Positions 632 to 17,671 of a stretch of DNA of 64,000 nucleotides are shown here, piece after piece (within the stretch, counting starts at the first letter, position 1; the number at the start of each line of letters is the position of its first letter). The notes beneath the pieces were generated by a model. It searched no databases, was not told the origin of the DNA, and worked only from the letters and a program-made list of their open reading frames with translations. The stretch is from a virus. The stretch spans positions 1 through 64,000 of IMG/VR virus record IMGVR_UViG_3300027763_000036; one strand, 5' to 3'. Both the position numbers and the translations under genes were made by a program.

Positions 632-634
632 ATC

Positions 635-1299: not shown

Positions 1300-1320
1300 T
1301 TTTTCGGTTTTTTAATTGTT

Positions 1321-1997: not shown

Positions 1998-1999
1998 CT

Positions 2000-2179: not shown

Positions 2180-2185
2180 AAAATT

Positions 2186-2696: not shown

Positions 2697-2711
2697 ATAG
2701 TAATATAGTAA

Positions 2712-3806: not shown

Positions 3807-3816
3807 AATTTGTAAG

Positions 3817-5089: not shown

Positions 5090-5111
5090 ATGGAAGAATT
5101 GTTTTATACTA

Positions 5112-5119
5112 CAAATATA
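5112..5119 (-). promoter_or_regulatory. Bacteroidota-type -7 promoter element (TATATTTG) for the endonuclease
   Basis: Matches TAnnTTTG, 22 nt upstream of ATG 5089. Confidence 0.55.
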
Positions 5120-5160
5120 ATACATTTCTTCCACATAGTTATCTTATTTTGTTTTCTCTT

Positions 5161-5382
5161 TCATTGTTCTTGTTGTTTATTTAGTTCGTGTTTTACTTCT
5201 TCCCAATAATTTATTATTAGTCTATTTTGCCAATGATGCTCGTGTAAAGACTCAATTACTTCATCAACTGCAATCAATGCACATTGTTTTCCTTTATAAT
5301 TGTTTAAGCCGCTGCCTTCATAATCTACTACATTTAACCTAAACTTATCAAATAACTCTTCTGCTTTTTCTTTTGGTGTCAT
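5161..5382 (-). CDS. Small hypothetical protein (MTPKEKA...QCALIAVDE...YWEEVK)
   Basis: 73-aa ORF. Confidence 0.75.
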   Translation of the reverse strand: MTPKEKAEELFDKFRLNVVDYEGSGLNNYKGKQCALIAVDEVIESLHEHHWQNRLIINYWEEVKHELNKQQEQ

Positions 5383-5450
5383 ATTTCTTGTTGTTTAAAA
5401 GTTTAAAAAAGTGCTTGTCTTTCCAAGCTGTCAGAGAATTAATCTTTTTC

Positions 5451-5537
5451 TCAAATAAGGGATTTAAATCCCCCATGGTTCTTCCATATAACGGTTTCTT
5501 TTCCACAACCGTCACATTCTTTAAGCTTTTGCTGCAT
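5451..5537 (-). pseudogene. Orphaned 5' fragment of the HNH gene
   Basis: MQQKLKECDGCGKETVIWKNHGGFK-SLI* aligns with KLKICDGCGLEKHIWKSGETGGFK of ORF 3817-4239. Confidence 0.7.
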
Positions 5538-6021
5538 TCTTTAATCTTGGTAAAGTGACCGGTGCTTCCTGTAAACTTAAAAAGTTTTTAGGAAGTATAC
5601 CTTCAGATATAAAGATACTGATAATATCACTCTTTCCAATGTTTAAATCTTTAAAAGTTAAAGTATTAGTATACTTTTCATCTACCTCAGAATAAGCTAC
5701 CATAGATTCTGTCCAAGGACTTTTGGGAAACAAAGTCTGAAATATATAATTGCTGTACTGATTAGTAACTTGCTGTTTAAAAACATTAAGCACTCTTTGA
5801 GCACGTTTATATACATTTAGTATTCTTTGTTTCTTTTTGCTACACATTGTGTCTAGCTCTTCTTTTGTCAGTGCATTTAGGCCATACAAAGCACGCTTGT
5901 ATAAATAATTCTGGTACTGAGAGTAACCATCTGATTCATACTGTGTATATGTTTTGCCTGCATTTAACTGATAATTTTTGACCTGCTGTTTTAACTTTTC
6001 CATTTTATACATTTTTTTCAT
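5521..6021 (-). CDS. Hypothetical protein
   Basis: 166-aa ORF. Confidence 0.8.
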   Translation of the reverse strand: MKKMYKMEKLKQQVKNYQLNAGKTYTQYESDGYSQYQNYLYKRALYGLNALTKEELDTMCSKKKQRILNVYKRAQRVLNVFKQQVTNQYSNYIFQTLFPKSPWTESMVAYSEVDEKYTNTLTFKDLNIGKSDIISIFISEGILPKNFLSLQEAPVTLPRLKNAAKA

Positions 6022-6036
6022 AAATTAATAATCATA

Positions 6037-6066
6037 AAAAATAAAAGGGGGTAGTTACCCACCCCC
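6037..6066 (-). terminator. Intrinsic terminator
   Basis: GGGGGT...ACCCCC stem followed by TTTTATTTTT. Confidence 0.7.
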
Positions 6067-6089
6067 AATTATTCTATCAACTCAATATC

Positions 6090-6563
6090 TTAGATATTAA
6101 ATTCTTGTCCTGCTGCACTTTTGATAGCAGAACTATTTGCTTGAGAATATGCAGTACGTAATTGCTCTACATTATCATGCTTGATTAATGTATCTTGTGC
6201 ATTAGATGCAGAAGAATATACTGCTCTACGGTAGATTGGTAACCCACCTACAGTACAGATAATTCCTGTATCACCAGCAACTTTAAGATCACGCTCAGGA
6301 GTTTTCTTGTTAAATGGAGTCATAGACTCTTCAATAACAATAGTACCTGGCAACTCTTGTCCGGCATAAAAGCCCATAAGAGTTAAATCTGCAGTAGAAC
6401 CTTGTAATAAGGCAGAAACATTTTTTCTCTCAATGAAGTTATTATTACCAATAATCATTCGAGTTTGTTCTACTCTTACACTTGCAAAAACTGGATTGTT
6501 TTCAGAAATTTTAACTACTGCACCTGTAGTAGCATCAGCTACAACTTTAACTGTTGAATTCAT
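6090..6563 (-). CDS. Putative single-stranded DNA-binding protein
   Basis: Beta-rich 157 aa with a flexible tail ending EFNI; leader has a pseudoknot plus (UAUU)7, as in the T4 gene 32 operator; function inferred. Confidence 0.5.
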   Translation of the reverse strand: MNSTVKVVADATTGAVVKISENNPVFASVRVEQTRMIIGNNNFIERKNVSALLQGSTADLTLMGFYAGQELPGTIVIEESMTPFNKKTPERDLKVAGDTGIICTVGGLPIYRRAVYSSASNAQDTLIKHDNVEQLRTAYSQANSSAIKSAAGQEFNI

Positions 6564-6576
6564 AATTCTTGTTTTT

Positions 6577-6655
6577 AATAAATAAATAAATAAATAAATA
6601 AATAGATTGTTGAGTGTAGATTTACTATATCATTAGTTACTCATGCTAAGTGATA
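6577..6655 (-). promoter_or_regulatory. Pseudoknot plus (UAUU)7 candidate translational operator
   Basis: Stem TATCACTTAG/CTAATGATA; loop TGAGT pairs with ACTCA (6611-6615); 7 perfect tetramer repeats at 6577-6604. Confidence 0.6.
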
Positions 6656-6688
6656 AGTGGTAAGTATTGCATATCGCGATTAGCAATA

Positions 6689-6961
6689 CTAGTTATCCAG
6701 TGGATCCTCTAAGTCAATGATATCATCAAATGGTAAATCATCTGATGCTATATCATTAGCGTCATAATCTTCTAGTGGAAGAAAATCTGTATCAATATAT
6801 TTTTCTCTGGTGTTTTTCTCAACAGCAGAACCGGTAAAAGGGTCTATGACATGTTCACCATAATCTATAGACATTAAGAACTGTATATCTAAATCTGTAA
6901 GATCTAAAAACTCATCTATGCTTAGATGCACAACCTTCCCGTTTGGTAACTGATATAACAT
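6689..6961 (-). CDS. Acidic hypothetical protein
   Basis: 90 aa, Asp-rich C-terminus. Confidence 0.8.
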   Translation of the reverse strand: MLYQLPNGKVVHLSIDEFLDLTDLDIQFLMSIDYGEHVIDPFTGSAVEKNTREKYIDTDFLPLEDYDANDIASDDLPFDDIIDLEDPLDN

Positions 6962-7045
6962 TATTTATTCTCTAGTAAAAATACGTGATAAAATCAAGTA
7001 TAATTGCTTGTGCAAAATAATATAATGCAATATATAGCTAACAAT

Positions 7046-7068
7046 AAAAGGGGAAACTTAATCCCCCT
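7046..7068 (-). terminator. Intrinsic terminator
   Basis: GGGGA-loop-TCCCC followed by TTTT. Confidence 0.65.
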
Positions 7069-7110
7069 ATTATTTGGTCAGGAAAAGCATATTCGCAGGA
7101 ATACACTATC

Positions 7111-7632
7111 TTACATTTTCTTATAGCTTTGAGCTATTTTTCTAATTAGCTTAGAGTAATGTGCGTTATTTGCATATGATCTATCTAAGTATGCATAATA
7201 TGCTTCTTCAGTTTTGAACTTGTGCATATATATGGCATAGTAAAAAATATAATCAATTACAGAATCACGCCAATGGTCATACTTTGCAAATCCATTTCTA
7301 GAACCTTTATTTGTAGTTGGTCTTAATCTAGCTTGACGCATGCCAAATAGATTATTGTTGTTTGCAAATATTCCTGAAGTAAACTTGCCTGACTCTAAGT
7401 GTGCCTGTGCTAGTATAATATGCGGGAATCTTACATTAAGACTATATACATATTTTACAAGAGCTTCTTGAGAGAATGTTGAATCTAAACTTGGTATATA
7501 TTTAGGTTTTGGATCAATGTTTTTAGCAATTGCTCTTCTTTGTACTGGTGTCATTGCTAAATTAATAGCAAGAGCAATTACTACAAGTGCTCCTAACACC
7601 ATCATGTTTCTGTAAAATTTACTATTATCCAT
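7111..7632 (-). CDS. GH73 glucosaminidase-family peptidoglycan hydrolase with N-terminal membrane anchor
   Basis: ILAQAHLESG, NNLFGM, FAKY, YA-x4-Y motifs; hydrophobic residues 10-27. Confidence 0.85.
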   Translation of the reverse strand: MDNSKFYRNMMVLGALVVIALAINLAMTPVQRRAIAKNIDPKPKYIPSLDSTFSQEALVKYVYSLNVRFPHIILAQAHLESGKFTSGIFANNNNLFGMRQARLRPTTNKGSRNGFAKYDHWRDSVIDYIFYYAIYMHKFKTEEAYYAYLDRSYANNAHYSKLIRKIAQSYKKM

Positions 7633-7661
7633 AATGTTTAGTTTAGTTAATAAGTAGATAG

Positions 7662-7735
7662 TGATCCTGTTTGGATTCGAACCAAAGACCTATTGCTTAG
7701 AAGGCAATTGCTCTATCCAGCTGAGCTACAGGACC
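7662..7735 (-). tRNA. tRNA-Arg (anticodon UCU)
   Basis: GGTCCTG/CAGGATC acceptor, D-arm GCTC/GAGC, anticodon stem ATTGC/GCAAT with loop CTTCTAA, T-loop TTCGAAT; CCA not encoded. Confidence 0.95.
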
Positions 7736-7790
7736 AATATAAAACAGACTATTGCACCTTTCATCTGTTTCCTGCGGTTATAAGTGCACG

Positions 7791-7798
7791 CAAATATA
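7791..7798 (-). promoter_or_regulatory. -7 promoter element TATATTTG upstream of the tRNA
   Basis: TAnnTTTG match. Confidence 0.55.
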
Positions 7799-7799
7799 A

Positions 7800-8090
7800 T
7801 TAATATTCTGGTCCCATTTCTTCCCAGGTAAGATCATCATCACTAAGAATCCACAAATTTGCTACAAATCCTGTAGCTGTATTTAGTAAATACTTAGCAG
7901 TTGGGAAAACTACCATTACATAGCTATCTCCTTGTCTAGAGATGCTAGTAATTCTTTCTTGTTGAACAACTTCAACGTTTTTAATAAACTTTACCTCAGA
8001 TTTAGTAAAGCCACGGAACATACCATCATCAGCTAAAGTAATGGTAGTTGTACATGTAATCAGTAATGCAAATAATAAGTTCTTAATCAT
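7800..8090 (-). CDS. Secreted hypothetical protein
   Basis: Signal-peptide-like N-terminus. Confidence 0.7.
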   Translation of the reverse strand: MIKNLLFALLITCTTTITLADDGMFRGFTKSEVKFIKNVEVVQQERITSISRQGDSYVMVVFPTAKYLLNTATGFVANLWILSDDDLTWEEMGPEY

Positions 8091-8341
8091 GATAATTTTT
8101 TAAATAGTCCAACAAAAAGTAACAATAATGCAGATGCTACAAAGAACACAAGACCCTGTTTGAATCTTACAAATGTTTCTTCCATCTGTATCTCTTCATC
8201 AACAGTATCTAAATCTATGCATAGTTCATTTACTCTATAAACTACTATTTCAGGATCTGCACTTGACTGATATGCAGCAATAATGAGGGACTGTATATCC
8301 CTCTTTTGCTGTTCTAATTTTCTTAACTTTCTGTAAATCAT
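8087..8341 (-). CDS. Coiled-coil protein with C-terminal transmembrane helix
   Basis: 84 aa; GLVFFVASALLLLFVGLF. Confidence 0.7.
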   Translation of the reverse strand: MIYRKLRKLEQQKRDIQSLIIAAYQSSADPEIVVYRVNELCIDLDTVDEEIQMEETFVRFKQGLVFFVASALLLLFVGLFKKLS

Positions 8342-8475
8342 TTGCTTACAGTTTTGTTCTGCACTTGCTTTGTCTGACCATAAGCATCACAGTGGTGAGT
8401 AGTACCGCAACTAACAAAAGATGCTAATACACCAATAAATAAAAACCATAATACTACAATTGCAATTGTTTTCAT
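8338..8475 (-). CDS. 45-aa lipoprotein with CDAY motif (not in ORF track)
   Basis: MKTIAIVVLWFLFIGVLASFVSC-GTTHHCDAYGQ...; lipobox FVSC; ATGA overlap with the next gene. Confidence 0.7.
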   Translation of the reverse strand: MKTIAIVVLWFLFIGVLASFVSCGTTHHCDAYGQTKQVQNKTVSK

Positions 8476-8486
8476 AATCATAAATT

Positions 8487-8831
8487 TTAAAAGGGTAAAT
8501 CTAAATCAACAGGTTGGCTAAAATTTTCCATACCTAATGCGCTATCTAACAGTGCTTGCTTCTTACATGCAAGTTTATGCATCTTAGCATTAACTTGATA
8601 TAGTTTGAGTTTTTCAAACCACATGATATACTTTTCACTTGATCTTGTATTCCAATGTACAACACCTTCTATTCTGTAGAGGTGTGGATTCTTTCTGCTA
8701 TTGCAGTAAGCCACATCAAAATCATATTCTTTCCTGATCTCAATAGCATCTTCAGGTGTAAGATTCATGTTAAGTTTAATCAGAGTGTGGCTACCAAATG
8801 AATGGTAACCAAAAGGGACTGTTTTGTTCAT
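8487..8831 (-). CDS. Hypothetical protein ending in DLPF
   Basis: 114-aa ORF with an SSB-like acidic C-terminal tip. Confidence 0.75.
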   Translation of the reverse strand: MNKTVPFGYHSFGSHTLIKLNMNLTPEDAIEIRKEYDFDVAYCNSRKNPHLYRIEGVVHWNTRSSEKYIMWFEKLKLYQVNAKMHKLACKKQALLDSALGMENFSQPVDLDLPF

Positions 8832-8876
8832 AAGTTTATTTTTAAATTGTTAATCATAATATAAAATCATAGTCAC

Positions 8877-9160
8877 CTAGTGACAAGAATATATAGATAA
8901 AGTCAAATTCAAATACTAAGGCAAAGACCTTCTCTTCTACAAAGGCAAATACAAATACTAAGTCTCAATGTTAGCCAATTGCATATAATGCATAACCTGT
9001 CTAACTTGGGAGTTCTATCTCAGTTTTTATAGTTTGAAGAGAAGCGGTAATTATTAGTAATTTTAATTTTATAAGTGGTATCACCACATACTTTATTAAA
9101 AAAATTCTTGTCACTAGATATAAAGAGTAGAGGAATCAGCTTGTGCCTATCCCCTACTCA
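8877..9160 (-). ncRNA. Candidate structured RNA downstream of the 303-aa gene
   Basis: Perfect 14-bp closing stem (9104-9117/8877-8890), inner 9-bp stem (9036-9044/8929-8937), nine in-register hexamers, 5' hairpin GAGTAGGGGA...TCCTCTACTC. Confidence 0.7.
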
Positions 9161-9175
9161 CCTAATACCAGTACA

Positions 9176-10087
9176 CTATTTCTCAGGTGTCATGAATAAG
9201 TCAATGACATTCTGAAATCTAGGATCAACATTGATTCTCAATGCTGCAGCAGCTTTAACATTCAACTCTCGTTGAGCATTAAATTCCATAGTAAGCCTAC
9301 ACAACTCACCTTTGTACTCATCCATAGCAAGAGTATATTCTCTGTTAAGAGCTTCTTCTTGCTTTAGGAAAATAGCAGCTTTATCTGCATTTTCTTTTTG
9401 GATACGTGCATTCTCATCACTAACTAAGTTCTTAACCTTGGCTTTGAAGTAGTTTACACGTTGCTCATACTTGCGGTGCTCTTCAGCAACATCTTCATGC
9501 AATTGCATTAAAGACTGAGAGTCATGATGCTTAGTAATCTTAACAGGAGTTTTCTTATTATCCTCTACATTGAACCATTCAATGCTAGGCATGTTAGATA
9601 ACTCTTTTCTAAGACTAGACAACTTACCATTTTTATGGATAAATTGACCCAAGTGAGATGCCATAGCTTCTACTTGCAAATACTCTGAGTATTCTACATC
9701 AGAAAGTCTAGACCATCCCCATGATTCTTCAACATCTTGAATAACATCATAGTCAGTTGCATACTGTCTCTTAGGTTCCACAAGATGAGAGAAATCAGGA
9801 CGCGTATTCTGGATTCTCTCTATCTCAGCATCTTTACCCTTGATAGCTTCCATAAGGAATGCTTGGCAAGCATGTAAGTCACCCTTGATTTTAAGTTTCT
9901 CAAGGATATTATCCGGAATCACAGATGCCTCTTGCATCATATAAGACTGACCACTAATGGTAATAGTCTTACTGCAGTTGTTATAAGATTCCAACTCACG
10001 TTGAATCTCCAAAGCATTTTGGTTGCACAAGTTAGATACTGATTGTGCTTGGGACATGCTTAAACCCTTGGTAGATAAATTTCTCAT
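9176..10087 (-). CDS. 303-aa alpha-helical/coiled-coil hypothetical protein
   Basis: Long ORF with heptad-rich segments; no catalytic motif recognised. Confidence 0.85.
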   Translation of the reverse strand: MRNLSTKGLSMSQAQSVSNLCNQNALEIQRELESYNNCSKTITISGQSYMMQEASVIPDNILEKLKIKGDLHACQAFLMEAIKGKDAEIERIQNTRPDFSHLVEPKRQYATDYDVIQDVEESWGWSRLSDVEYSEYLQVEAMASHLGQFIHKNGKLSSLRKELSNMPSIEWFNVEDNKKTPVKITKHHDSQSLMQLHEDVAEEHRKYEQRVNYFKAKVKNLVSDENARIQKENADKAAIFLKQEEALNREYTLAMDEYKGELCRLTMEFNAQRELNVKAAAALRINVDPRFQNVIDLFMTPEK

Positions 10088-10140
10088 TGTTTTTTGTTTT
10101 TGAGAGTTAATAAATAAATTGATTTTTAAGTTGATAAAAA

Positions 10141-10166
10141 GAGCAGTTTAACATCATGCTCAGGAT
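10141..10166 (-). ncRNA. Mini H-type pseudoknot, copy 1
   Basis: ATC-CTGAGCAT-GAT...AAACTGCTC, then a U-tract. Confidence 0.65.
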
Positions 10167-10178
10167 AATATTTGAATA

Positions 10179-10535
10179 CTAATCTATTAGATTAGGTTCA
10201 TCTTCCCCTCTAAGATCATAGTTAGTTCTATCATAGAAATCACCATAAGATTCTTCTCTACTGTAGAACTCATCACGGGCAACATCTTCTTGATCATCAA
10301 GATCACTTAACTGATCTTTATATCCTTGTAGTTCTGCTTTAAGTGACTCTATTAATTCTATTTGTTCTTCTCTCCACCATCTGTACTCAAGTGCTTCTTG
10401 ATGTTTGTCTGTTAAATCTTCACAGTCAGCAATTGTTGCAGAAACATTAGGAGTATTATATAAATCATATTCCGCTTGTTCAAGTTCATGAGAAGTTTCA
10501 ACAACAAGTTTAAATAAATCATCTCTTGTAATCAT
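10179..10535 (-). CDS. Acidic coiled-coil hypothetical protein
   Basis: 118 aa, D/E-rich. Confidence 0.75.
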   Translation of the reverse strand: MITRDDLFKLVVETSHELEQAEYDLYNTPNVSATIADCEDLTDKHQEALEYRWWREEQIELIESLKAELQGYKDQLSDLDDQEDVARDEFYSREESYGDFYDRTNYDLRGEDEPNLID

Positions 10536-10563
10536 ATTTTTAAGTTTAATTGGTTACTAATTT

Positions 10564-10693
10564 TTACCCCTCTGCACTCAGTTGTAACACTAATCTTTAA
10601 CCACTATTGATAAGTTGGGTCAAGAAACCATAATTTGTATATATGGTGTTACAACTGCTCACCCTTGGGAAGTGAGTTATGGTGCATTAATAA
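10564..10693 (-). ncRNA. Twister ribozyme (type P1, with long P5 insertion)
   Basis: P1 TTAT/GTAA, L1 UAA, P2 TGCA/TGCA, T2 CC/GG, P4 CTCAC/GTGAG with loop TTCCCAAGG, 3' GA-GGG (T1), 12-bp P5 CAGTTGTAACAC/GTGTTACAACTG. Confidence 0.75.
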
Positions 10694-10719
10694 GAGCAGT
10701 TTGTCTACATGCTCAGGTA
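10694..10719 (-). ncRNA. Mini H-type pseudoknot, copy 2
   Basis: TAC-CTGAGCAT-GTA...AAACTGCTC; covaries with copy 1. Confidence 0.65.
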
Positions 10720-10747
10720 TACGCAGAATATCACTGCCTTTCTATTG

Positions 10748-10880
10748 TGTACTCTCACAAGGTTGCAATCCTTGAATTTGATAGCCTCTGCATATTACTA
10801 TGCTTCATATGCTACTATCTTGGTATAGTATCCACACGCTCAGCATAACTGATTGTGTTTACCTGCTTGGATGAGAGTAT
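10748..10880 (-). ncRNA. Candidate multi-stem junction RNA
   Basis: 8-bp closing stem TACTCTCA/TGAGAGTA enclosing four hairpins; the last (CAAGG-7nt-CCTTG) stacks directly on the closing stem; strand assumed from context. Confidence 0.55.
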
Positions 10881-10994
10881 AATAAATGGCTGTTTATGCT
10901 ATAAACATTTAATACATAGTAATTTGTATGATGAATATTTAACAGGCTAGCTAAACCTGCAGTACTCAACACCCCTATGTAACCATAAAATAAA

Positions 10995-11021
10995 GAGCAG
11001 TTTTATATCCTACTCAGGATA
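10995..11021 (-). ncRNA. Mini H-type pseudoknot, copy 3
   Basis: TATCC-TGAGTA-GGATA...AAACTGCTC, then a U-rich tract. Confidence 0.65.
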
Positions 11022-11026
11022 GTTGG

Positions 11027-11164
11027 TTATCCCAACTGCTCAATAGCAATCGGGAGTCCCTGTTTGTCTAACACTCTTTTTACTGTTTTACCATTAGAGT
11101 ATTTAACATACTGTACAAGGGAGAGGTTACCCTTATACATTTCAATCATAGTTTTGATAATCAT
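11027..11164 (-). CDS. 45-aa hypothetical protein (not in ORF track)
   Basis: MIIKTMIEMYKGNLSLVQYVKYSNGKTVKRVLDKQGLPIAIEQLG*, with an A-rich leader. Confidence 0.55.
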   Translation of the reverse strand: MIIKTMIEMYKGNLSLVQYVKYSNGKTVKRVLDKQGLPIAIEQLG

Positions 11165-11258
11165 AACTTAATATTTTTTAGTGTGAGGACTTGCCTGTGC
11201 TAGGTACACAGGACTTGGGTGTTAATAATAATATTGATTGTGCTCAATATTTAAATAA

Positions 11259-11456
11259 TAGACAAGAGTGTAACAATATCCTACATTGCTACTAGACCGC
11301 TGAGTCATCACTTGAATTAAACTGAATTCCACTTCAGTCAGCTGTATTCTCCCAAGTGGAATCTTGTATAAGAGAATAGATAATGGCATACCACATATTA
11401 CTGCTGCGGTCAACAGGTTCACACTGCCGGATTACTCCCGTGTATAACACTGCCTA
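11259..11456 (-). ncRNA. Candidate ~200-nt structured RNA with an internal pseudoknot
   Basis: Stems TAGGCAG/TTGTCTA and GACCGC/GCGGTC; interleaved TATTCTC/GAGAATA and ATTCCACTT/AAGTGGAAT. Confidence 0.55.
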
Positions 11457-11515
11457 GTTTAAATTAAACTCACATAGCTTTATCAATACTATGTGTAAAA
11501 TACCTGATTTTTAAG

Positions 11516-11701
11516 TCTGCACTAACTTTGGATTATATCACTGCAAATGATAAGTAGCACTATAAATCTCTTTGCAGGAGAAATACAGAACCCAATAGTA
11601 GCCCCACAGGTTTGTCACTGTTTGCTAACAGTAATGAACTTTGCTTGACATCAACAACCCCGTCAAGTATAAACTTGAGTGTAAACCGTATAGAGTGCAA
11701 A
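11516..11701 (-). ncRNA. Candidate ~185-nt structured RNA
   Basis: Closing TTTGCACT/AGTGCAGA; inner ACGGTTT/AAACC-TGT, CTTGAC/GTCAAG, TACTGTT/AACAGTG. Confidence 0.5.
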
Positions 11702-11746
11702 GGTTAAAAACTCCCCCTCAGTTATTTACAGTTGATGTACTAATTA

Positions 11747-11992
11747 TTAAAGATTATCCATAGAGATAATGCTATCAAGGTCACTATATGTACCTTGATA
11801 AACATTACCTTGTAAAGATTCAACTTTAATATTGTTTTCAGATACTTCAAGGAAGTATTCTGTTTTAATGTGCTTAGAAGCTTTCGCGGGAGTTTCTTTC
11901 TTTACAATAACATGTAGTATTACATGTATAAGTATAGAGAAGGAAACACATCCAAGTATAAAGCCAATAAGGAATGAATCATTTGATTTCAT
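11747..11992 (-). CDS. Single-pass membrane protein
   Basis: Start moved to 11992 (MKSNDSFLIGFILGCVSFSILIHVIL), downstream of a terminator. Confidence 0.7.
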   Translation of the reverse strand: MKSNDSFLIGFILGCVSFSILIHVILHVIVKKETPAKASKHIKTEYFLEVSENNIKVESLQGNVYQGTYSDLDSIISMDNL

Positions 11993-12016
11993 ATTTATGG
12001 TTTTAGTTATTACTTT

Positions 12017-12041
12017 AAAAAAATGCAGGCCTTTCACCTGC
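12017..12041 (-). terminator. Intrinsic terminator
   Basis: GCAGG-TGAAAGG-CCTGC-ATTTTTTT. Confidence 0.7.
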
Positions 12042-12237
12042 TTGGGATAATATCCTCAATGGTATGACATTATTGGTTAGTCATACAAGTTGCGGAGAGG
12101 ATTACTGCCTCTCACTCTGTAAGTATAAGTTACATAGATAATCTGTTCCTATCATTTGTTCAAGGATACTGATTAGTATGGATATGGACAATCTTCTGAT
12201 TTCATATTATATGTTTTTAATTGTTAAACAATATAGA

Positions 12238-12405
12238 TTACCCTGCAAGAGAGTAATCCTTTTGCATTACTACCACTAAACCAACTGCTGGATGCTGGTA
12301 TTCATGTAGTACTGTATAACCTTCTTTACATTTCATATGTATAAGGTCTTTAAGCTCTATGCCCATAGACATAGCTTGATCTTCTGTAATGGTAATTTCT
12401 TCCAT
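12238..12405 (-). CDS. 55-aa hypothetical protein (not in ORF track)
   Basis: MEEITITEDQAMSMGIELKD...YSLAG*; leader TAGTAACCAATTAAA shared with the 10535 gene. Confidence 0.6.
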   Translation of the reverse strand: MEEITITEDQAMSMGIELKDLIHMKCKEGYTVLHEYQHPAVGLVVVMQKDYSLAG

Positions 12406-12751
12406 TGTATATTGATTTAATTGGTTACTAGGTAAGCAGTTAGCTATATAAAATCTTTTAACTATACTATACTAGTATAGTAAAATACAGATATATTAGT
12501 GTTAATAAATAGAGAGAGTGTTTAGTAGTAACATAGACTAATAGATTAAAACAAGCTTGTTTCCGCACTGGTTATCAGTAAGTTATGGTTATCCACAGAA
12601 TGTTTGCAATAACAGCAGAGGTACCCTGCGGTGACCGCCACAAAGACAGTCTCCTTTTTTGTCTTATTAAAGATTCCACAGGCTGAAACTCCTTAGAGTT
12701 TCTCCTTTCTAAGCATAACAAGTTGTATTATACACTCCCGGCTCAGTAATT

Positions 12752-12790
12752 AAAAAGGGAGAGCATGTATTTCTACACACTCCCCCTTTT
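12752..12790 (-). terminator. Intrinsic terminator
   Basis: GGGGGAG...CTCTCCC followed by TTTTT, after ORF 12798. Confidence 0.7.
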
Positions 12791-12797
12791 AGCACCC

Positions 12798-13202
12798 TTA
12801 CAGGTTCAACACCTTGGATGTCTCCTCTACCTCATCAAACATGTCATCAGTGATTTCTGCACCAACAACTAATGAGGATAAGGCCCACCATGGACTACGT
12901 GGAGTTCCATCAGCATTCTTGCTACGGGTAACAGAACCTAAGTAAGTACCACCTGTTTCCATGTCTTGCTCATAGGATTTCCTATAAACATGGACATTGT
13001 TGGCTACATGCTTTTGCTGATTTTCATCTAAGAACTCAACAGTTGCAAGTTTGTACTCAACTTTCTCAATGCCGTTTTCCCCCTCAACCTCATAGTCAAA
13101 AACATTGTCACTCAGTCTTTTAAGAGTGCCTTTGATTTTTGCTACTTTAACCAAGTTACCGCGTGAAGTTGTTTGCTCCACAAATTTTAATGCAATTCCC
13201 AT
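12798..13202 (-). CDS. Hypothetical beta-rich protein, possibly OB-fold
   Basis: 134 aa with an acidic tail. Confidence 0.8.
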   Translation of the reverse strand: MGIALKFVEQTTSRGNLVKVAKIKGTLKRLSDNVFDYEVEGENGIEKVEYKLATVEFLDENQQKHVANNVHVYRKSYEQDMETGGTYLGSVTRSKNADGTPRSPWWALSSLVVGAEITDDMFDEVEETSKVLNL

Positions 13203-13430
13203 TTTGATAAAATTTAATGAGATTATATTTGTAGGGCAAAACCAAGCCTTGCCCTTTTAGGCTTTTCTTTTTATTAAAGATTTCTGTTAGGCTGAACACG
13301 GAGTGTTCTCCTTTCTAAGAGTAAGTTTTTGTATTTTTAGTCATTTTGTAACTGCTTGATTATCAGGACCAAAGTCTACTTGTTCCACCGCGTAGATACT
13401 TAACACTCCTTGGCTAACTTTTCAAAAAGA

Positions 13431-13451
13431 AAAAAGGGGATTACTCCCCTT
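13431..13451 (-). terminator. Intrinsic terminator
   Basis: AAGGGGAGTAATCCCCTTTTT. Confidence 0.75.
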
Positions 13452-13824
13452 ATAAGTTCTTAAACATGTTAACCAAGTCTGCATGGTCATCATTACCATT
13501 TGTGTTTTCTAACTTAAGTAACTCAGGTAAGTTAACATCTTTACCAGAATACACATGATAATCTATTGAGCCATATCCTGTACGTTTTTCATGATAGGTT
13601 TCCATGACATATGCTTCAAGCATTTTCCATATATCATTACAATACATGCCTGTAAGTTTATGATAACCATCAATAGTAAGCCCATCATATCTTGGTACAT
13701 AACCCATAGTATCCCATGAGTAACCATCTTCAAACATTCTGATTTTCTCAGCAACAAATGTAATAACAGGAAAAGCTACAGTAGCTTCTACTTCAATCTT
13801 TTTCTTGTAAGTAATTGTTTTCAT
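13450..13824 (-). CDS. Early cassette hypothetical protein
   Basis: 124 aa; ATG 24 nt downstream of the 12-mer. Confidence 0.8.
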   Translation of the reverse strand: MKTITYKKKIEVEATVAFPVITFVAEKIRMFEDGYSWDTMGYVPRYDGLTIDGYHKLTGMYCNDIWKMLEAYVMETYHEKRTGYGSIDYHVYSGKDVNLPELLKLENTNGNDDHADLVNMFKNL

Positions 13825-13871
13825 AATAAATAGTTTTAAATTCTTTTCTTATTAAAGATTAAAAAAGGGGA

Positions 13872-14177
13872 TTATATCCCCTTTTCAGCTAACAGCTCAG
13901 CAACCTTATGTTCCACCAATTTTTCCATTAGGGAAACCTGATAATTAAAATCATGTATTGGTTCCATTACATAAGATTGGTCATAACCATTTGACTTTGG
14001 TAGTCCATGTACTGTAATTTCAGTACCTGTTTTAACAAAGAGCAGGTCTCTCATAGTAATCATAACAAAGGATTCTGTTTCTTCTCCAGTTATGATAACT
14101 CTACCCCAAGCATAGGGTCTATTAAATTTGTCAGTATATATGTTTTTACCGACCCATGTAAGTGTTCCTTTAAGCAT
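13872..14177 (-). CDS. Early cassette hypothetical protein
   Basis: 101 aa; ATG 26 nt after the 12-mer; stop lies inside the terminator hairpin. Confidence 0.8.
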   Translation of the reverse strand: MLKGTLTWVGKNIYTDKFNRPYAWGRVIITGEETESFVMITMRDLLFVKTGTEITVHGLPKSNGYDQSYVMEPIHDFNYQVSLMEKLVEHKVAELLAEKGI

Positions 14178-14248
14178 AATAAATAATTTTAAATGTTTAT
14201 ATTTTATTAAAGATTAAAAAAGAAAGGGGATGTTACTCCCCTTAACTT

Positions 14249-14431
14249 TTAAATAGCAATCTTACCTACATACTTTACCTCTATTATCTTATAAGATACA
14301 CCGGGATGTCTATTACTTGATTCAAGATATTTATATGCCTGTTCTACTGCATAAAACATACTAGATGCTTTTATGTGAAAGTATTCTGTATCATTACTTT
14401 TCACGGTTACTAAAAATAGATTTTCTTTCAT
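14249..14431 (-). CDS. Early cassette hypothetical protein (60 aa)
   Basis: Start moved to 14431 (MKENLF), giving the standard 25-nt spacing from the 12-mer. Confidence 0.75.
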   Translation of the reverse strand: MKENLFLVTVKSNDTEYFHIKASSMFYAVEQAYKYLESSNRHPGVSYKIIEVKYVGKIAI

Positions 14432-14485
14432 TGTATATAATTTAATTGTTCTCATATTATTAAAGATTAAAATTTAAAAAGGGTG

Positions 14486-14632
14486 TTACCCCTTTCTAAT
14501 TCTAAACTTTCCATAAGTATGATTACCTTGGTTTTGTAAATCATATCTTTTCCAATAAGCTAAATCCCTTGTTGGGAATGTATATGCCTCTCTAACTTCA
14601 GAGCCATTAACAATGTATTCAAGTATCCACAT
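14486..14632 (-). CDS. Early cassette 48-aa protein (not in ORF track)
   Basis: MWILEYIVNGSEVREAYTFPTRDLAYWKR...RIRKG*; stop inside the terminator. Confidence 0.75.
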   Translation of the reverse strand: MWILEYIVNGSEVREAYTFPTRDLAYWKRYDLQNQGNHTYGKFRIRKG

Positions 14633-14671
14633 AGTTTATATTTCTTATCTTACTAAAGATTCAAAAATAAA

Positions 14672-14869
14672 CTAAGCCCCCTGGTTAAGGAGCTTAGCTA
14701 TTTCTTTGGCATCTACATATTTCTTGCATATTGTAAATCCGCAAGCAGGTGGAACACGGTCAATGTATTCTTGTGCTAAGAATGCAGAGTGTTTAGCAGT
14801 AGCAGTGTATGCTAATTGTAGAACAGGTTTTCCTAAGTAATCTGTGATAAGTGCAAAGTAAATTTTCAT
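14672..14869 (-). CDS. Early cassette 65-aa protein
   Basis: ATG 26 nt after the 12-mer; stop inside the terminator stem. Confidence 0.75.
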   Translation of the reverse strand: MKIYFALITDYLGKPVLQLAYTATAKHSAFLAQEYIDRVPPACGFTICKKYVDAKEIAKLLNQGA

Positions 14870-14923
14870 GGCAATTGTTTTTAATGATTATTTTATTAAT
14901 AAAGATTAAAATTAAAAGGGGAA

Positions 14924-14995
14924 TCACCCCCTTATAATTCGATACTTAATGTATGCCAACAGGAACACAAGTCCCCAAAGAATTGCTGTTATCAT
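14924..14995 (-). CDS. Early cassette 23-aa transmembrane micropeptide (not in ORF track)
   Basis: MITAILWGLVFLLAYIKYRIIRG*; 25-nt spacing; stop in the terminator loop. Confidence 0.7.
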   Translation of the reverse strand: MITAILWGLVFLLAYIKYRIIRG

Positions 14996-15043
14996 AGTAT
15001 TTAATTTAATTGTTCTTATCTTACTAAAGATTAAAAAGGGGAA

Positions 15044-15193
15044 TTAATCCCCTAACATTGGTGTTAACATTCCTGCCCAGAACAAGCAAGAGAATCCTAT
15101 ACAAGGCCAAATGTCATGTCCCATAGACATTAACAATCCCATAAAAGAACCTAACAAAGCAACACCAAATAAATAACCAGCAATTGATTTCAT
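15044..15193 (-). CDS. Early cassette 49-aa two-helix membrane protein (not in ORF track)
   Basis: MKSIAGYLFGVALLGSFMGLLMSMGHDIWPCIGFSCLFWAGMLTPMLGD*; 25-nt spacing. Confidence 0.75.
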   Translation of the reverse strand: MKSIAGYLFGVALLGSFMGLLMSMGHDIWPCIGFSCLFWAGMLTPMLGD

Positions 15194-15276
15194 AATATAT
15201 AGTTTTATAATTCTCTCCTTACTAAAGATTTAAAAAAAATAAAGAGCCACCTTAAAAAGGTAGCTCAGAACTTACA

Positions 15277-15456
15277 TCACCATACATAAACTTCTGAAGT
15301 TAAACATGGTTCCTCCCATTCAGTAACTCTTATATACATAGAGTGAAACTGAACAGGAATAAAACTAAGTTCAAATTCCAAATCACCAAATGGATGCCAT
15401 TCATCATTTGGTAACATGTACTTACGAAAGAAATAATTTGCAATTGCTTGTTTCAT
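15277..15456 (-). CDS. Early cassette 59-aa protein (not in ORF track)
   Basis: MKQAIANYFFRKYMLPNDEWHPFGD...EVYVW*; 25-nt spacing. Confidence 0.75.
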   Translation of the reverse strand: MKQAIANYFFRKYMLPNDEWHPFGDLEFELSFIPVQFHSMYIRVTEWEEPCLTSEVYVW

Positions 15457-15494
15457 GGTATTTAGTTTTAAAGTTCACACCTTACTAAAGATTC

Positions 15495-15612
15495 AAAAAA
15501 AAAACAGGGAACGTCTTCCCTGCTTTGGTGGCTTTGTAGTATCAACACTGATTCCATATAGAGGCCTTACTATGGGTGTTGGCTATAACTCTCTTGGCTA
15601 TAGACTTTATAT
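15495..15612 (-). ncRNA. Candidate small RNA occupying the first cassette
   Basis: No suitably placed ORF between the 12-mer and terminator CAGGGAA-GACG-TTCCCTG-T10; hairpins CTATAGC/GTTATAG and CAACAC/GTGTTG. Confidence 0.5.
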
Positions 15613-15639
15613 TTTATTAAAGATTAAAAAGAAAGAAAG

Positions 15640-16200
15640 ACAGAAAGATAGTGGCGCAGCCACACCTATAGAATGAATGATGAGTAAGGCATGTGTGGCA
15701 AGCCATAGTATAAATGCTTTAAGTGTTGGCCTCAAGGGTTGGCTAAAGTATTTATGCTTGGCGCGCAGGTGTGTGGCAAGAGCATTTACTAAGGCTTAAG
15801 TCTGAACGATAGAGAAGGCTAAAGTCTTAGTAAGTGCTCAGTGCGTGTGTGCAAAGGCAGAGAAGGCAAAGGGCTGAAGTATGAAGCAGCTTGCCTTCTG
15901 CGCGGTGGCGGTTAATAGTCACTTAGTCATTACATAGTATATTTACTTAGCCTTGGCATAGCATGCACACCCTTGGATCACTAGTCATGTAGCACAAGCA
16001 TAGTCTTAGCATCCACATGTCTTTGCTTTGCTAGGTAGCTAGAAACTTTTCTGCTGAGAAAACATTTGCAAAATATTTCTGTAACACAGGTTTTTGCTTC
16101 AGATTTCATGGGGGGTGGCTCCAGTCTCCTTGGCCCCCGGGGGGTCAGTTACATATGACCCACCACAACCTCTCCAATAAAATATTTCTCCTACCGGTTT
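15640..16200. other. Non-coding divergence region with long hairpins and G/C tracts; possible genome terminus, origin or packaging region
   Basis: Strand switch; GC-richer; inverted repeats 15710-15755, 15781-15838 and 15861-15899; G6 runs at 16110 and 16139. Confidence 0.5.
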
Positions 16201-16220
16201 GGAGTTTTAAAATATAGTTT

Positions 16221-16228
16221 TATATTTG
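16221..16228 (+). promoter_or_regulatory. -7 promoter element TATATTTG
   Basis: TAnnTTTG at the start of the plus arm. Confidence 0.55.
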
Positions 16229-16311
16229 CAACATAATTTTAAGGGTTAATAAGTAACAATAGGTCTGGAGTTGAAAGCCCAGGCCTTTGTTATGTTATTT
16301 AAATTTGTTAT

Positions 16312-16578
16312 ATGGAAAAATGGAAGATATTCTTCCTATATGTATTTGCTTTATGTATGGGAATTGCTATTGCTTGTTCTATGTCTGGGTGTAAGTCTCC
16401 GCAGAATTGTGATGCCTATGGTTCTTTTGATATTAAAGGGTATGAGTATGTCCAGGTTATTGGTTATACAGATACTATGCCTACCTTGGGTGAGAACTTA
16501 ATTCATCTTCCTATAGGGGAGTATGAACTTAGAGTCTGGGAAAGTGGGCAGTCTAAAGTATTGAAAGTTAAATTATAA
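16312..16578 (+). CDS. Lipoprotein with CDAY motif
   Basis: Hydrophobic signal, MSGC lipobox, QNCDAYG. Confidence 0.75.
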   Translation: MEKWKIFFLYVFALCMGIAIACSMSGCKSPQNCDAYGSFDIKGYEYVQVIGYTDTMPTLGENLIHLPIGEYELRVWESGQSKVLKVKL

Positions 16579-16593
16579 TTCGTATATTAGTAT

Positions 16594-17040
16594 ATGAAGA
16601 AGATAGACATGGGTAAGTATGTATTACTCATTGGTAATGATGCTACTGAAATATTTGACTATTACAAAGTCCCGGAAATGCATGGGCTAAATAGAGCAGA
16701 TGCTCAAGCTGAAGAAGTAGATAAGACCAAGGGTAATGGTGTTTACATATATGGATTTACTAACTATGATCCCGCGGATAAGAAGCTGACAGGTAAAGCT
16801 CCACACAAACCATTCTTGTTTTTGAACATGGGTACTTTCAAGAAGTATTCACCTACAGAGAAAGCCACAGCCGTTATGCATGAGACTATGCACATGAGTC
16901 TGCTACTAAATAATGGGGATATCAAAGACAAGGAAGAAGAAGTTATTACCTTTGCCGAGGATGAAGCAAATAAGATTATAGAGAAGTTAAAAACTACCAA
17001 GGTAGAAGCACCAAAGAAAAACTTCTTCTCAAGAAAATAA
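16594..17040 (+). CDS. Zincin-like (HEXXH) protein
   Basis: AVMHETMHM with downstream EE. Confidence 0.65.
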   Translation: MKKIDMGKYVLLIGNDATEIFDYYKVPEMHGLNRADAQAEEVDKTKGNGVYIYGFTNYDPADKKLTGKAPHKPFLFLNMGTFKKYSPTEKATAVMHETMHMSLLLNNGDIKDKEEEVITFAEDEANKIIEKLKTTKVEAPKKNFFSRK

Positions 17041-17041
17041 T

Positions 17042-17671
17042 ATGGCATATCTAAATTCAAATATTCCTACTATAACTTGTTTTATTAGGAATCAGTTTTT
17101 GTTTAATCACGAACAAGGACATGGCGAATATACTCTAGCAGATGTGCATTCTGTAGCTTCTATACAGAAGAGGACTCCACTGTTTGAAGCATTCTTAGAG
17201 AACGGGGTCAACTGGACAAGAAGACCTATCCATGCATTTTGCTGGAAGAAGGATGCAGAAACATTACCACTTACAGAGCATGTATATTGGGATTGCTTTT
17301 CTTCTTATGTAGATGTACAGGTAAGAGAGAGGATGTTTGGATTACGCGCAGATCTAATTTCTATAACTGGTGTAAAGAGACAAGGAGTATATATGTTTAC
17401 TCTTGATTGGTCACATGAAAATAGAAACATGTTAGATACTAATTTCTCAGAGACACCTGAGCATAAGTGCGGGCATGTTTTTAAAATGGACAATGGTAAT
17501 TATTTTATATATCCTAATAATAGAATTATATGGTTTGACAAAGCATGGACATATAACAGGATAGATGAGAACCCAGGGTATAAGATTGACATGACTATCT
17601 ACTCAGTAGAAAATAATACTGGGTATGAAAGTGATTATAGTTACATAACAGAGTTTAATAAAAATAAATAA
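17042..17671 (+). CDS. Phage hypothetical protein
   Basis: 209-aa ORF (MAYLNSNIP...PEHKCGH...YPNNRI). Confidence 0.85.
   Translation: MAYLNSNIPTITCFIRNQFLFNHEQGHGEYTLADVHSVASIQKRTPLFEAFLENGVNWTRRPIHAFCWKKDAETLPLTEHVYWDCFSSYVDVQVRERMFGLRADLISITGVKRQGVYMFTLDWSHENRNMLDTNFSETPEHKCGHVFKMDNGNYFIYPNNRIIWFDKAWTYNRIDENPGYKIDMTIYSVENNTGYESDYSYITEFNKNK

What the first reader, a model, noticed from the sequence alone, without database searches (positions are those of the whole stretch)
12664..15625. Array of single-gene cassettes, each bounded by hairpin/U-tract plus an invariant 12-mer with ~25-nt spacing to the ATG
Eleven same-strand copies of AATCTTTA(A/G/T)TAA divide ~3 kb into units. In eight consecutive units the ATG lies 24-26 nt downstream (17 nt in one). 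The ORF (23-124 aa, mutually unrelated, four missed by the ORF track) often stops inside a GGGG-loop-CCCC terminator whose U-tract runs straight into the next 12-mer. The motif is unlike the host TAnnTTTG element. crAss-like phage phi14:2 transcribes early genes with a virion-packaged RNA polymerase, and T4-type phages have promoter/stem-loop (PeSL) cassettes that shuffle genes. Inference: these are virion-RNAP early promoters that also make a plug-and-play, integron-like array of host-takeover or anti-defence genes.
Basis: partly seen in the sequence, partly recalled or inferred. Interest (0 to 1): 0.85.

Follow-up and report, generated by a model that had tools for sequence, protein, structure and literature searches.

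The report
Early mini-gene cassettes, crAss-like phage
An uncultured crAss-like phage opens its replication-gene arm with a row of one-gene units, each with its own terminator and an identical 12-base start signal; related phages swap these genes freely, and the signal changes together with the phage's own giant RNA polymerase, so it is a testable candidate for that enzyme's still unknown promoter.

Summary
AATCTTTADTAA occurs 12 times on the minus strand at 11744-15625 (0.27 expected). The only other copy in the 113.5-kb genome is one plus-strand copy inside a gene. Eight consecutive units have the form hairpin/T-tract, 12-mer, 17-26 nt, ATG, small ORF.

Six other viral contigs carry arrays of the same 12-mer (4-15 copies) with different gene content, and in one case a swapped order. 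Junctions fall in the roughly 60-nt terminator-promoter-leader repeat. One cassette (124 aa) is 97.8% identical in a phage that uses a different upstream motif. The "plug-and-play" reading is therefore well supported, but the mechanism resembles the PeSL elements of T4-type phages (homologous recombination), not an integron.

More distant relatives carry other motifs at the same locus. The closest complete relative has TerL 93% and MCP 96% identical. Its RNA-polymerase segment is only 36% identical and its motif differs, so the motif follows the polymerase block rather than the backbone. This supports a phage-polymerase promoter, but it rests on a single discordant genome pair and there are no 5' ends.

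Cassette functions remain unknown. The scan has already noted similar arrays in other crAss-like genomes.

The parts
15614..15625 (-). 12-mer copy 0. It heads a roughly 120-nt unit (15494-15613) with no credible ORF that ends in terminator 15501-15526; probably a small RNA.
   Evidence: the terminator stem keeps pairing through compensatory changes in 5 genomes; the body is variable
15277..15493 (-). Cassette 1: 12-mer 15482-15493, 25-nt leader, 59-aa ORF 15277-15456, terminator 15244-15266.
   Evidence: homologue in L202, dN/dS 0.39
15037..15230 (-). Cassette 2: 12-mer 15219-15230, 25-nt leader, 49-aa two-TM ORF 15044-15193 with its stop codon in the loop of terminator 15037-15053.
   Evidence: family present in 5 arrays, dN/dS 0.25-0.57
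14916..15032 (-). Cassette 3: 12-mer 15021-15032, 25-nt leader, 23-aa hydrophobic ORF 14924-14995, terminator 14916-14933.
   Evidence: unique to this genome, coding status unverified
14670..14907 (-). Cassette 4: 12-mer 14896-14907, 26-nt leader, 65-aa ORF 14672-14869, terminator 14670-14699.
   Evidence: unique to this genome
14474..14661 (-). Cassette 5: 12-mer 14650-14661, 17-nt leader, 48-aa ORF 14486-14632, terminator 14474-14499.
   Evidence: 90% aa identity in L133 and L215, dN/dS 0.2-0.4
14224..14468 (-). Cassette 6: 12-mer 14457-14468, 25-nt leader, 60-aa ORF 14249-14431, terminator 14224-14243.
   Evidence: unique to this genome
13862..14215 (-). Cassette 7: 12-mer 14204-14215, 26-nt leader, 101-aa ORF 13872-14177, terminator 13862-13886.
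   Evidence: against L133 there are 12 nonsynonymous and 0 synonymous differences
13434..13860 (-). Cassette 8: 12-mer 13849-13860, 24-nt leader, 124-aa ORF 13450-13824, terminator 13434-13451.
   Evidence: window 13840..13430 is 97.8% identical to L399, where it sits behind a different motif
12752..13308 (-). Class-II unit: covarying hairpin 13294-13308, 12-mer 13271-13282, structured 68-nt leader, 134-aa ORF 12798-13202 (conserved in all same-motif arrays), terminator about 12752-12790.
   Evidence: (dN/dS 0.15-0.29)
12238..12702 (-). Class-II unit: covarying hairpin 12685-12702, 12-mer 12664-12675, 258-nt non-coding leader, 55-aa ORF 12238-12405 (conserved also in relatives that use other motifs).
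11502..11755 (-). 12th 12-mer (11744-11755), overlapping the stop codon of the 81-aa ORF 11747-11992. About 105 nt downstream lies a Hatchet self-cleaving ribozyme (11502-11638) at the head of a roughly 1.2-kb ORF-poor stretch.
   Evidence: RF02678, 81 bits against gathering score 51, E 4e-16

Best explanation
Each 12-mer, together with about 8 conserved purine-rich bases after it, is the core of a phage-specific promoter. Each unit is a monocistronic transcription unit: promoter, fixed leader of about 25 nt, small gene (or small RNA), intrinsic terminator. The array sits at the head of the replication-gene (presumed early) arm of a crAss-like phage. The promoter is most likely read by the phage's own two-barrel RNA polymerase, which lies inside a 4438-aa protein of the virion-gene block and is presumably injected with the DNA. 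It is probably not read by the host sigma-A holoenzyme. The terminator-promoter-leader segments (about 60 nt, 70-90% alike) also serve as substrates for homologous recombination. That recombination inserts, deletes, replaces and reorders genes, and it lets a gene with its terminator move between phages that use different promoter motifs. Shown here: motif statistics, unit anatomy, terminators, purifying selection on shared ORFs, cassette flux and its junctions, and motif type following the polymerase block. Inferred: that the motif is a transcription start signal, which polymerase reads it, early timing, and what the genes do.
For: There are 12 strand-specific exact copies against 0.27 expected, with no degenerate copies and no other minus-strand copy in the genome. 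Hairpin/T-run sites number 30 against 4.1 expected. Of 56 sites in 6 distinct genomes, 87.5% have an upstream hairpin of -8 kcal/mol or stronger, against 15% of controls. Two A's at +18/+19, which were not part of the search pattern, are conserved in 52/56 and 56/56 sites. The motif precedes non-coding units as well as ORFs: unit 0 and the Hatchet ribozyme RNA. Six other contigs carry arrays of the same 12-mer with different cassette sets and one A-B/B-A order swap. dN/dS is 0.13-0.57 for shared ORFs, and per-cassette dS is mosaic, from 0.06 to 1.7 within one genome pair. Indel junctions end at the next ATG and restart at the stop codon or terminator, with 59-63-nt overlaps. The 124-aa cassette is 97.8% identical over 411 nt in L399 behind a different motif, and homologues in 14 contigs sit behind at least 4 motif types. 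Each of the complete relatives G001 and G011 has its own motif; G001's is confined to the same locus, and 7 of G011's 8 copies cluster in one array. A DFDGD polymerase domain is homologous to crAss-like 'RNAP catalytic subunit' genes. G000 and G001 share TerL 93% and MCP 96% identity but only 36% in the polymerase segment, and they have different motifs. G001's polymerase (60-66%) and motif instead group with five genomes whose TerL is more distant. The two replaced regions (the array and 50.4-92.8 kb) are not adjacent. Host-type TAnnTTTG boxes occur before some other genes, but the array holds only one fortuitous match, overlapping a terminator T-run at 14661. As precedent, the P23-45 virion polymerase uses 14 copies of a strongly conserved AT-rich motif before pre-early genes (bioRxiv 10.1101/2022.12.01.518664).
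Against: No transcript 5' or 3' ends are available. In the one studied crAss-like phage, phi14:2, early transcripts made by the virion polymerase showed no common upstream motif, and its early region has no such array. The link between polymerase and motif rests on one clearly discordant genome pair. No pair with the same motif and a sequenced polymerase could be found, because the contigs break. G016 and G021 share nearly the same motif at only 62% polymerase identity, so identity of that segment is a loose proxy for specificity. The motif is confined to about 4 kb, whereas in phi14:2 the whole replication arm is early. Packaging of the polymerase in the virion is assumed from homology only. 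Hairpin/U-tract terminators are typical of host polymerase.
Confidence: 0.6

Rival explanations
1. The motif is a promoter, but it is read by host RNA polymerase. Either an unusual host sigma factor reads it, or a phage-encoded specificity factor (sigma-like protein or activator) made or injected early does. The units would then be early or middle host-polymerase transcripts.
For: [quoted passage not shown] Several proteins outside the polymerase block also lack a G001 counterpart and could be specificity factors. No in-vitro or in-vivo data tie the motif to the phage polymerase.
Against: The motif resembles neither the Bacteroidota -33/-7 elements nor sigma-70 boxes: the sigma-70 scan was at chance level (29 against 30.6), and the array holds no TAnnTTTG box apart from one fortuitous match overlapping a terminator T-run. 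The motif differs sharply between sister phages with 93-96% identical core proteins, which is unexpected for a host-determined signal. A de novo factor cannot serve the very first transcripts unless it is packaged in the virion.
Confidence: 0.2
2. The motif acts at the RNA level. It would be a processing or cleavage site, a binding site for an RNA-binding protein, or a translation-enhancing leader on longer read-through transcripts, rather than a transcription start signal.
For: The distance to the ATG is fixed at 24-27 nt (17-18 nt in a few units), and the leader is conserved and A-rich. Class-II copies lack a T-run upstream and could be reached by read-through.
Against: Strong terminators lie 1-13 nt upstream of most copies, so little RNA should reach them. 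The motif also precedes non-coding units: unit 0 and the ribozyme RNA. When the 124-aa cassette moves between phages, the motif stays with the resident genome while the last 16 nt of the leader travel with the gene. So the translation-relevant part and the 12-mer are separable.
Confidence: 0.1
3. The motif is a site-specific recombination site (attC-like or similar) of an integron-type gene-capture system.
For: There are single-gene cassettes, variable content at one locus, and exchange of cassettes between genomes.
Against: No integrase or recombinase lies in or near the array. The 12-mer has no dyad symmetry. Junctions are not at a fixed base in the 12-mer: they spread over a 59-63-nt repeat, or lie between the motif and the leader. 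The motif is not carried along with the transferred cassette. Every slot has its own copy upstream of the gene, unlike attC sites, which lie downstream.
Confidence: 0.04

Closest known systems
PeSL (promoter-early stem-loop) cassettes of T4-type phages (Arbiol et al. 2010, PMC2839356; Comeau et al. 2014, PMC4122927)
   Same: Composite terminator-plus-early-promoter repeats with polyG/polyC stem-loops, concentrated in a hyperplastic region just upstream of ORFans. Recombination between them yields insertions, deletions and replacements between close relatives (one search compared).
   Different: PeSL promoters are sigma-70 consensus sites read by host polymerase. Here the signal is an unrelated, lineage-specific 12-20-mer in a crAss-like podovirus-type genome, arranged as one tight tandem array rather than dispersed over many regions. 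Mini-circles were not tested.
Pre-early promoters of the tape-measure-fused virion RNA polymerase of Thermus phage P23-45 (bioRxiv 10.1101/2022.12.01.518664)
   Same: Many copies (14) of a strongly conserved AT-rich motif lie before small pre-early genes in one genome region. They are read by an injected single-chain two-barrel polymerase, and the motif is present only in relatives that have that polymerase.
   Different: The phage family, polymerase lineage and motif are all different. There the start sites and polymerase occupancy were measured; here nothing was measured. P23-45 pre-early terminators carry a special 26-nt motif, whereas here they are ordinary hairpin/T-runs.
T7-family promoters and their cognate single-subunit polymerases (T7, T3, SP6, K11; textbook knowledge)
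   Same: Near-identical promoter copies within a genome, different consensus in related phages, and specificity that changes together with the phage polymerase.
   Different: No T7-like polymerase is detectable in this genome (PF00940 search, although the control search also found nothing). The polymerase here is of the two-barrel DFDxD type.
Early transcription of crAss-like phage phi14:2 by virion polymerase gp66 (bioRxiv 10.1101/2020.03.07.982082)
   Same: The polymerase is homologous, the replication arm is transcribed divergently from the structural arm, and abundant non-coding RNAs lie near the start of the early arm.
   Different: phi14:2 early transcripts showed no common motif, and its first 12 kb has no terminator-motif array.
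Coliphage N4 early promoters (hairpin promoters read by the injected polymerase; PMC4496689)
   Same: An injected polymerase serves a few early units at one genome region, and hairpins lie next to the start signal.
   Different: N4 promoters are themselves hairpins with fixed geometry. Here the distance from hairpin to 12-mer varies from 1 to 20 nt, and the hairpins carry T-runs, so they are terminators.
Integron gene cassettes
   Same: Promoterless single genes are captured at one locus and exchanged between genomes.
   Different: There is no integrase, no attC site and no common Pc promoter, and the junctions point to homologous rather than site-specific recombination.

Membership tests
PeSL cassettes (T4-type phages) | Promoter part matches the host sigma-70 early-promoter consensus | tested here: not met
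   The sigma-70-type scan is at chance level (29 against 30.6). The conserved 12-mer has no -35/-10 layout.
PeSL cassettes (T4-type phages) | G/C-rich stem-loop acting as terminator or attenuator, joined to the promoter | tested here: met
   30 hairpin/T-run sites against 4.1 expected, eight of them abutting a 12-mer. Hairpin of -8 kcal/mol or stronger at 87.5% of 56 sites. Function was not assayed.
PeSL cassettes (T4-type phages) | Located in a hyperplastic region, mostly in front of ORFans | tested here: met
   No Pfam or PHROG hits. The locus has no DNA similarity in 18 relatives, although its flanks are conserved.
PeSL cassettes (T4-type phages) | Indels and replacements between relatives have their junctions in the repeats | tested here: met
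PeSL cassettes (T4-type phages) | Excised mini-circles formed by recombination between neighbouring repeats | not testable with these tools
   Needs PCR or read-level data from phage DNA.
Promoter of a crAss-type virion RNA polymerase | Genome encodes a two-barrel polymerase with the DFDxD motif, homologous to crAss-like polymerases | tested here: met
   DFDGD at nt 83514 of G000 in a 4438-aa ORF. tblastn hits to crAss-like 'putative RNAP catalytic subunit' genes, including Cellulophaga phage records, with E down to 7e-19. phmmer against PDB chains found nothing.
Promoter of a crAss-type virion RNA polymerase | Transcripts start at the motif, early, resistant to rifampicin; the polymerase is present in virions | not testable with these tools
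   No culture, transcriptome or proteome is available.
Promoter of a crAss-type virion RNA polymerase | Motif type co-varies with the polymerase across genomes | tested here: inconclusive
   Eight complete genomes were compared. The motif follows polymerase similarity rather than TerL similarity for the G000/G001 pair. That is one discordant event, with no positive control of two genomes sharing both motif and polymerase.
Integron | Tyrosine-recombinase integrase next to the array, attC sites, single Pc promoter | tested here: not met
   No recombinase among the neighbours. The 12-mer is not palindromic, lies upstream of each gene and stays behind when a cassette moves.
N4-type hairpin promoter | Hairpin at a fixed distance from the start site as the recognition element | tested here: not met
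   The gap between hairpin and 12-mer varies from 1 to 20 nt, and one copy lies in coding sequence without a nearby hairpin of that kind.
Intrinsic terminator | G+C-rich hairpin followed by a T/U run at the 3' end of a gene | tested here: met
   The stem of the first terminator shows compensatory changes across genomes.

The most novel reading that the evidence does not exclude
The 12-mer (extended to about 20 nt) is the long-sought promoter of a crAss-type injected RNA polymerase. Its specificity is modular: sister phages with 93-96% identical capsid and packaging proteins have swapped the whole block of giant ejected proteins, including the polymerase, and have rewritten every early promoter to match. 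Promoterless gene-plus-terminator cassettes circulate freely among phages with different polymerase/promoter pairs.
Probability: 0.45. Interest if true: 0.85.

Novelty: new variant of a known kind. Interest (0 to 1): 0.72.

Why it matters
How the giant virion RNA polymerase of crAss-like phages finds its early genes is unknown; the only experimental study found no motif. This freshwater lineage offers sharply defined, lineage-specific candidate promoters with natural specificity variants (at least five motif types). These can be tested directly with purified polymerase domains or reporter constructs. The array also shows, with junction-level resolution, how a crAss-like phage acquires and exchanges small accessory genes. 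One cassette appears to have transferred recently between phages with different signals. This extends the PeSL principle beyond T4-type phages, and it marks a compact set of small conserved proteins and RNAs as candidates for the first events of infection.

Tried and rejected
- megablast of the array and of a large gene against GenBank phages found no match.
- The ferredoxin-like neighbour gene was used as an anchor for relatives. It proved to be a widely shared auxiliary gene, and those loci carried no arrays.
- Pfam and PHROGs searches of all cassette ORFs gave nothing. ESM-Atlas searches of the 134-aa and 124-aa proteins gave only unnamed clusters or nothing. An AlphaFold model of the 124-aa protein from a 10-sequence alignment had mean pLDDT 65, too low for a fold search, so none was run.
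- A T7-like polymerase (PF00940) was not found, but the control search also found nothing, so the negative is weak.
- I looked for a genome carrying both our polymerase type and an array. Eight contigs have a related polymerase segment (six at 86-98% identity, two at 51-52%), but all are fragments without arrays. The metagenome scan returned only short contigs.
- I considered whether the single TAACCCTTAA-like element at 16247 (minus strand) is a second promoter class. Its conserved neighbour is the reverse complement of a host-type -7 box pointing rightward, so the resemblance is ambiguous.
- A hairpin-promoter (N4-like) reading was rejected because the hairpin-to-motif spacing varies.
- phi14:2 was checked for a similar array and has none.
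Full report
**Observation.** AATCTTTADTAA occurs 13 times in the window against 0.27 expected. Twelve copies lie on the minus strand between 11744 and 15625, and one plus-strand copy lies inside a gene at 36496. The window is bases 1-64000 of a 113,521-bp viral record (97% complete), and that record has no further copy. Allowing one mismatch adds only chance-level scattered hits.

Read on the minus strand, eight consecutive units share one layout: G/C hairpin, T-run, 12-mer, 24-26 nt (17 nt in one unit), ATG, then an ORF of 23-124 aa. The stop codon often lies in or next to the next hairpin. Terminator-like sites number 30 against 4.1 expected in 10000-17000, nearly all on the minus strand. 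The repeat finder groups the inter-cassette segments into families of 37-66 nt at 61-84% identity.

**Genome context.**
- GC content is 32%.
- One gene arm runs leftward from about 16 kb, through the record start, to 92.8 kb. It holds a helicase interrupted by HNH genes and other replication functions.
- The other arm runs rightward from 16.3 to 92.8 kb. It holds terminase, portal, major capsid protein and eight giant ORFs.
- A 4438-aa ORF (G000 75948-89264) contains DFDGD. Residues around 2075-2540 hit the 'putative RNAP catalytic subunit' genes of crAss-like phages, including Cellulophaga phage records.

The phage is therefore crAss-like, and the array sits at the very head of its replication arm. 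In phi14:2 that arm is the early class, transcribed by the injected polymerase.

**What the units are.**
- The ORFs are unrelated to one another and have no Pfam or PHROG match.
- Where homologues exist in other arrays, dN/dS is 0.13-0.57, so even the 48-64-aa ORFs are real genes.
- The first unit has no credible ORF; its body is variable, but its terminator is conserved with compensatory changes.
- The 12th copy points into an ORF-poor stretch that begins with a full-length Hatchet ribozyme.
- Two copies (13282, 12675) are preceded by a covarying hairpin without a T-run and followed by long structured leaders.

A signal that precedes protein genes and RNA genes alike, always directly after a terminator, fits a transcription start signal better than a translation or processing signal.

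**Same-motif relatives.** Two pattern scans of viral contigs found six contigs with arrays of exactly the same 12-mer: L133 (10 copies), L142 (7), L202 (8), L203 (4, truncated), L215 (15) and L250 (15, identical to L215 across the array). Over 56 sites in six distinct genomes, two A's at +18/+19, which were not in the search pattern, are conserved in 52 and 56 of 56 sites. This extends the element to about 20 nt.

With one letter per ORF family, the cassette maps are:
- ours: L B W X F Y G Z | C
- L133: D A B F H G I | C
- L142: D B A J | C
- L202: L B A J U | C
- L215: D A B O F H P Q R G M I | C

Genes are therefore gained, lost and replaced, and in one case reordered (A-B against B-A). Four cassettes are unique to this genome. 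Divergence is mosaic: within the L142/L215 pair, dS ranges from 0.06 to 1.7 between cassettes.

Junctions are sharp. Between L133 and L215 (96-99% identical in shared blocks), homology runs up to ATG+2 of the next gene and resumes around the stop codon. Overlaps of 59-63 nt equal the inter-cassette repeat. The ours/L133 pair behaves the same way.

**Cassette transfer across motif types.** The 124-aa gene has homologues (60-98% identical) in 14 other viral contigs. In 13 of them it is again a single-gene unit with the same kind of terminator, but behind at least four other upstream motifs. Against L399, the similarity is 97.8% over 411 nt. It starts 16 nt before the ATG and ends after the terminator T-run, with no similarity outside that span. 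The gene with its terminator is thus the mobile part, and the 12-mer belongs to the resident genome.

**Motif diversity.** Eighteen relatives found through the conserved 303-aa neighbour share both flanks of the locus but none of the array DNA and none of the 12-mers. They carry their own repeated motifs at the same place and at similar distances from the ATG:
- mostly of the TAACCCTnAA type;
- CCACTCATAA in L103;
- ACAGCTCATAAC in L096.

In the complete genome G001 (114,922 bp), its motif occurs three times, all at this locus. In G011, ACCATTTTWTAAC occurs eight times, seven of them in one array.

**Which polymerase.** G000 and G001 are collinear, with most proteins 80-98% identical (TerL 93%, portal 88%, MCP 96%). 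The 42-kb block of giant proteins at 50.4-92.8 kb, which includes the polymerase, is only 28-54% identical or unmatched. Eight complete genomes were compared:

| Comparison | TerL identity | Polymerase catalytic segment identity |
|---|---|---|
| G000 vs G001 | 93% | 36% |
| G000 vs all seven other genomes | 72-93% | 34-40% |
| G001 vs G014/16/18/19/21 | 77-83% | 60-66% |

By TerL, G000 and G001 are sisters; by polymerase, G000 is the outlier. The five genomes that group with G001 by polymerase all use TAACCCT-like, CTAGCCCT-like or ATCA(A/G)CC-like motifs. The motif therefore follows the polymerase block rather than the backbone. In our lineage two non-adjacent regions, the array promoters and the polymerase block, differ together.

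This is the pattern expected if a product of that block reads the motif, but it amounts to one discordant event. I could not find a second genome with both our motif and a sequenced polymerase. Host-type TAnnTTTG boxes stand before some other genes, including the rightward promoter of the divergent region; the array holds only one fortuitous match, overlapping a terminator T-run.

**Comparison with what is known.**
- The recombination behaviour and anatomy match the PeSLs of T4-type phages in every tested respect except the defining sigma-70 promoter.
- The closest precedent for the promoter is P23-45, whose injected two-barrel polymerase uses 14 copies of a conserved AT-rich motif that is present only in relatives encoding that polymerase.
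- For crAss-like phages, the one experimental study reported no common motif upstream of early transcripts. Text searches found no later description.
- Earlier notes of this scan describe analogous arrays with other motifs in other crAss-like genomes, so the architecture recurs. New here are the junction-level evidence, the near-identical cassette behind two different motifs, and the link between motif and polymerase block.

**Verdict.** The feature is real, and its modular gene flux is demonstrated. The promoter function is likely (about 0.8). Reading by the phage's own injected polymerase is plausible (about 0.55-0.6). Cassette functions are unknown. 'Integron-like' should be replaced by 'PeSL-like'.

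Noticed in passing
window 11502-11638 (-): Full-length Hatchet self-cleaving ribozyme (RF02678, 81 bits against gathering score 51, E 4e-16), about 105 nt downstream of the 12th 12-mer at the head of a roughly 1.2-kb ORF-poor stretch. The stretch 11637-10990 is 78-84% conserved in L090 and L097.
   Followed up: partly
window 13872-14177 (-): The 101-aa cassette gene differs from its L133/L215 homologue by 12 nonsynonymous and 0 synonymous changes. This suggests diversifying selection (small sample).
   Followed up: partly
G000 50400-92806 (partly beyond the window): The whole block of eight giant ORFs (770-4438 aa) is 28-54% identical or unmatched against the otherwise 80-98% identical genome G001. 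The polymerase catalytic motif reads DFDGD here, DFDID in G001 and DFDVD in G011.
   Followed up: partly
window 16225-16250: A conserved element, TAACCCTTAAAAT, lies on the minus strand at the head of the leftward arm and resembles the cassette motif of the relatives. Its neighbour is the reverse complement of a host-type TATATTTG box that points rightward toward gene 16312. Which strand is functional is unclear.
   Followed up: partly
window 15626-16230 (-): About 600 nt of conserved, comparatively G+C-rich non-coding sequence lies between the divergent junction and the first 12-mer (88% identical to L133). It has no Rfam match.
   Followed up: no
window 17042-17671 (+): The 209-aa ferredoxin-family gene (phrog_3704) is 80-91% identical in hundreds of otherwise unrelated viral contigs but only 30% identical to the G001 counterpart. 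It looks like a widely exchanged auxiliary gene.
   Followed up: no
The permissive Rfam scan of 9500-17000 (E up to 1) reported no twister family match.
   Followed up: partly
window 2712-5134 (-): A helicase gene is followed by two HNH/homing-endonuclease ORFs. The 298-aa ORF has no counterpart in G001, which suggests a mobile endonuclease insertion.
   Followed up: no
window 36496-36507 (+): The only plus-strand copy of the 12-mer lies inside a 382-aa ORF that has no G001 homologue. There is no terminator or ATG context, so it is probably chance.
   Followed up: no
L398 (phi14:2, 1-12000): An AAAACTA-type element sits about 10 nt before many start codons, in phi14:2 and in our cassette leaders alike. 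This fits a shared Bacteroidota-type translation-initiation context.
   Followed up: no
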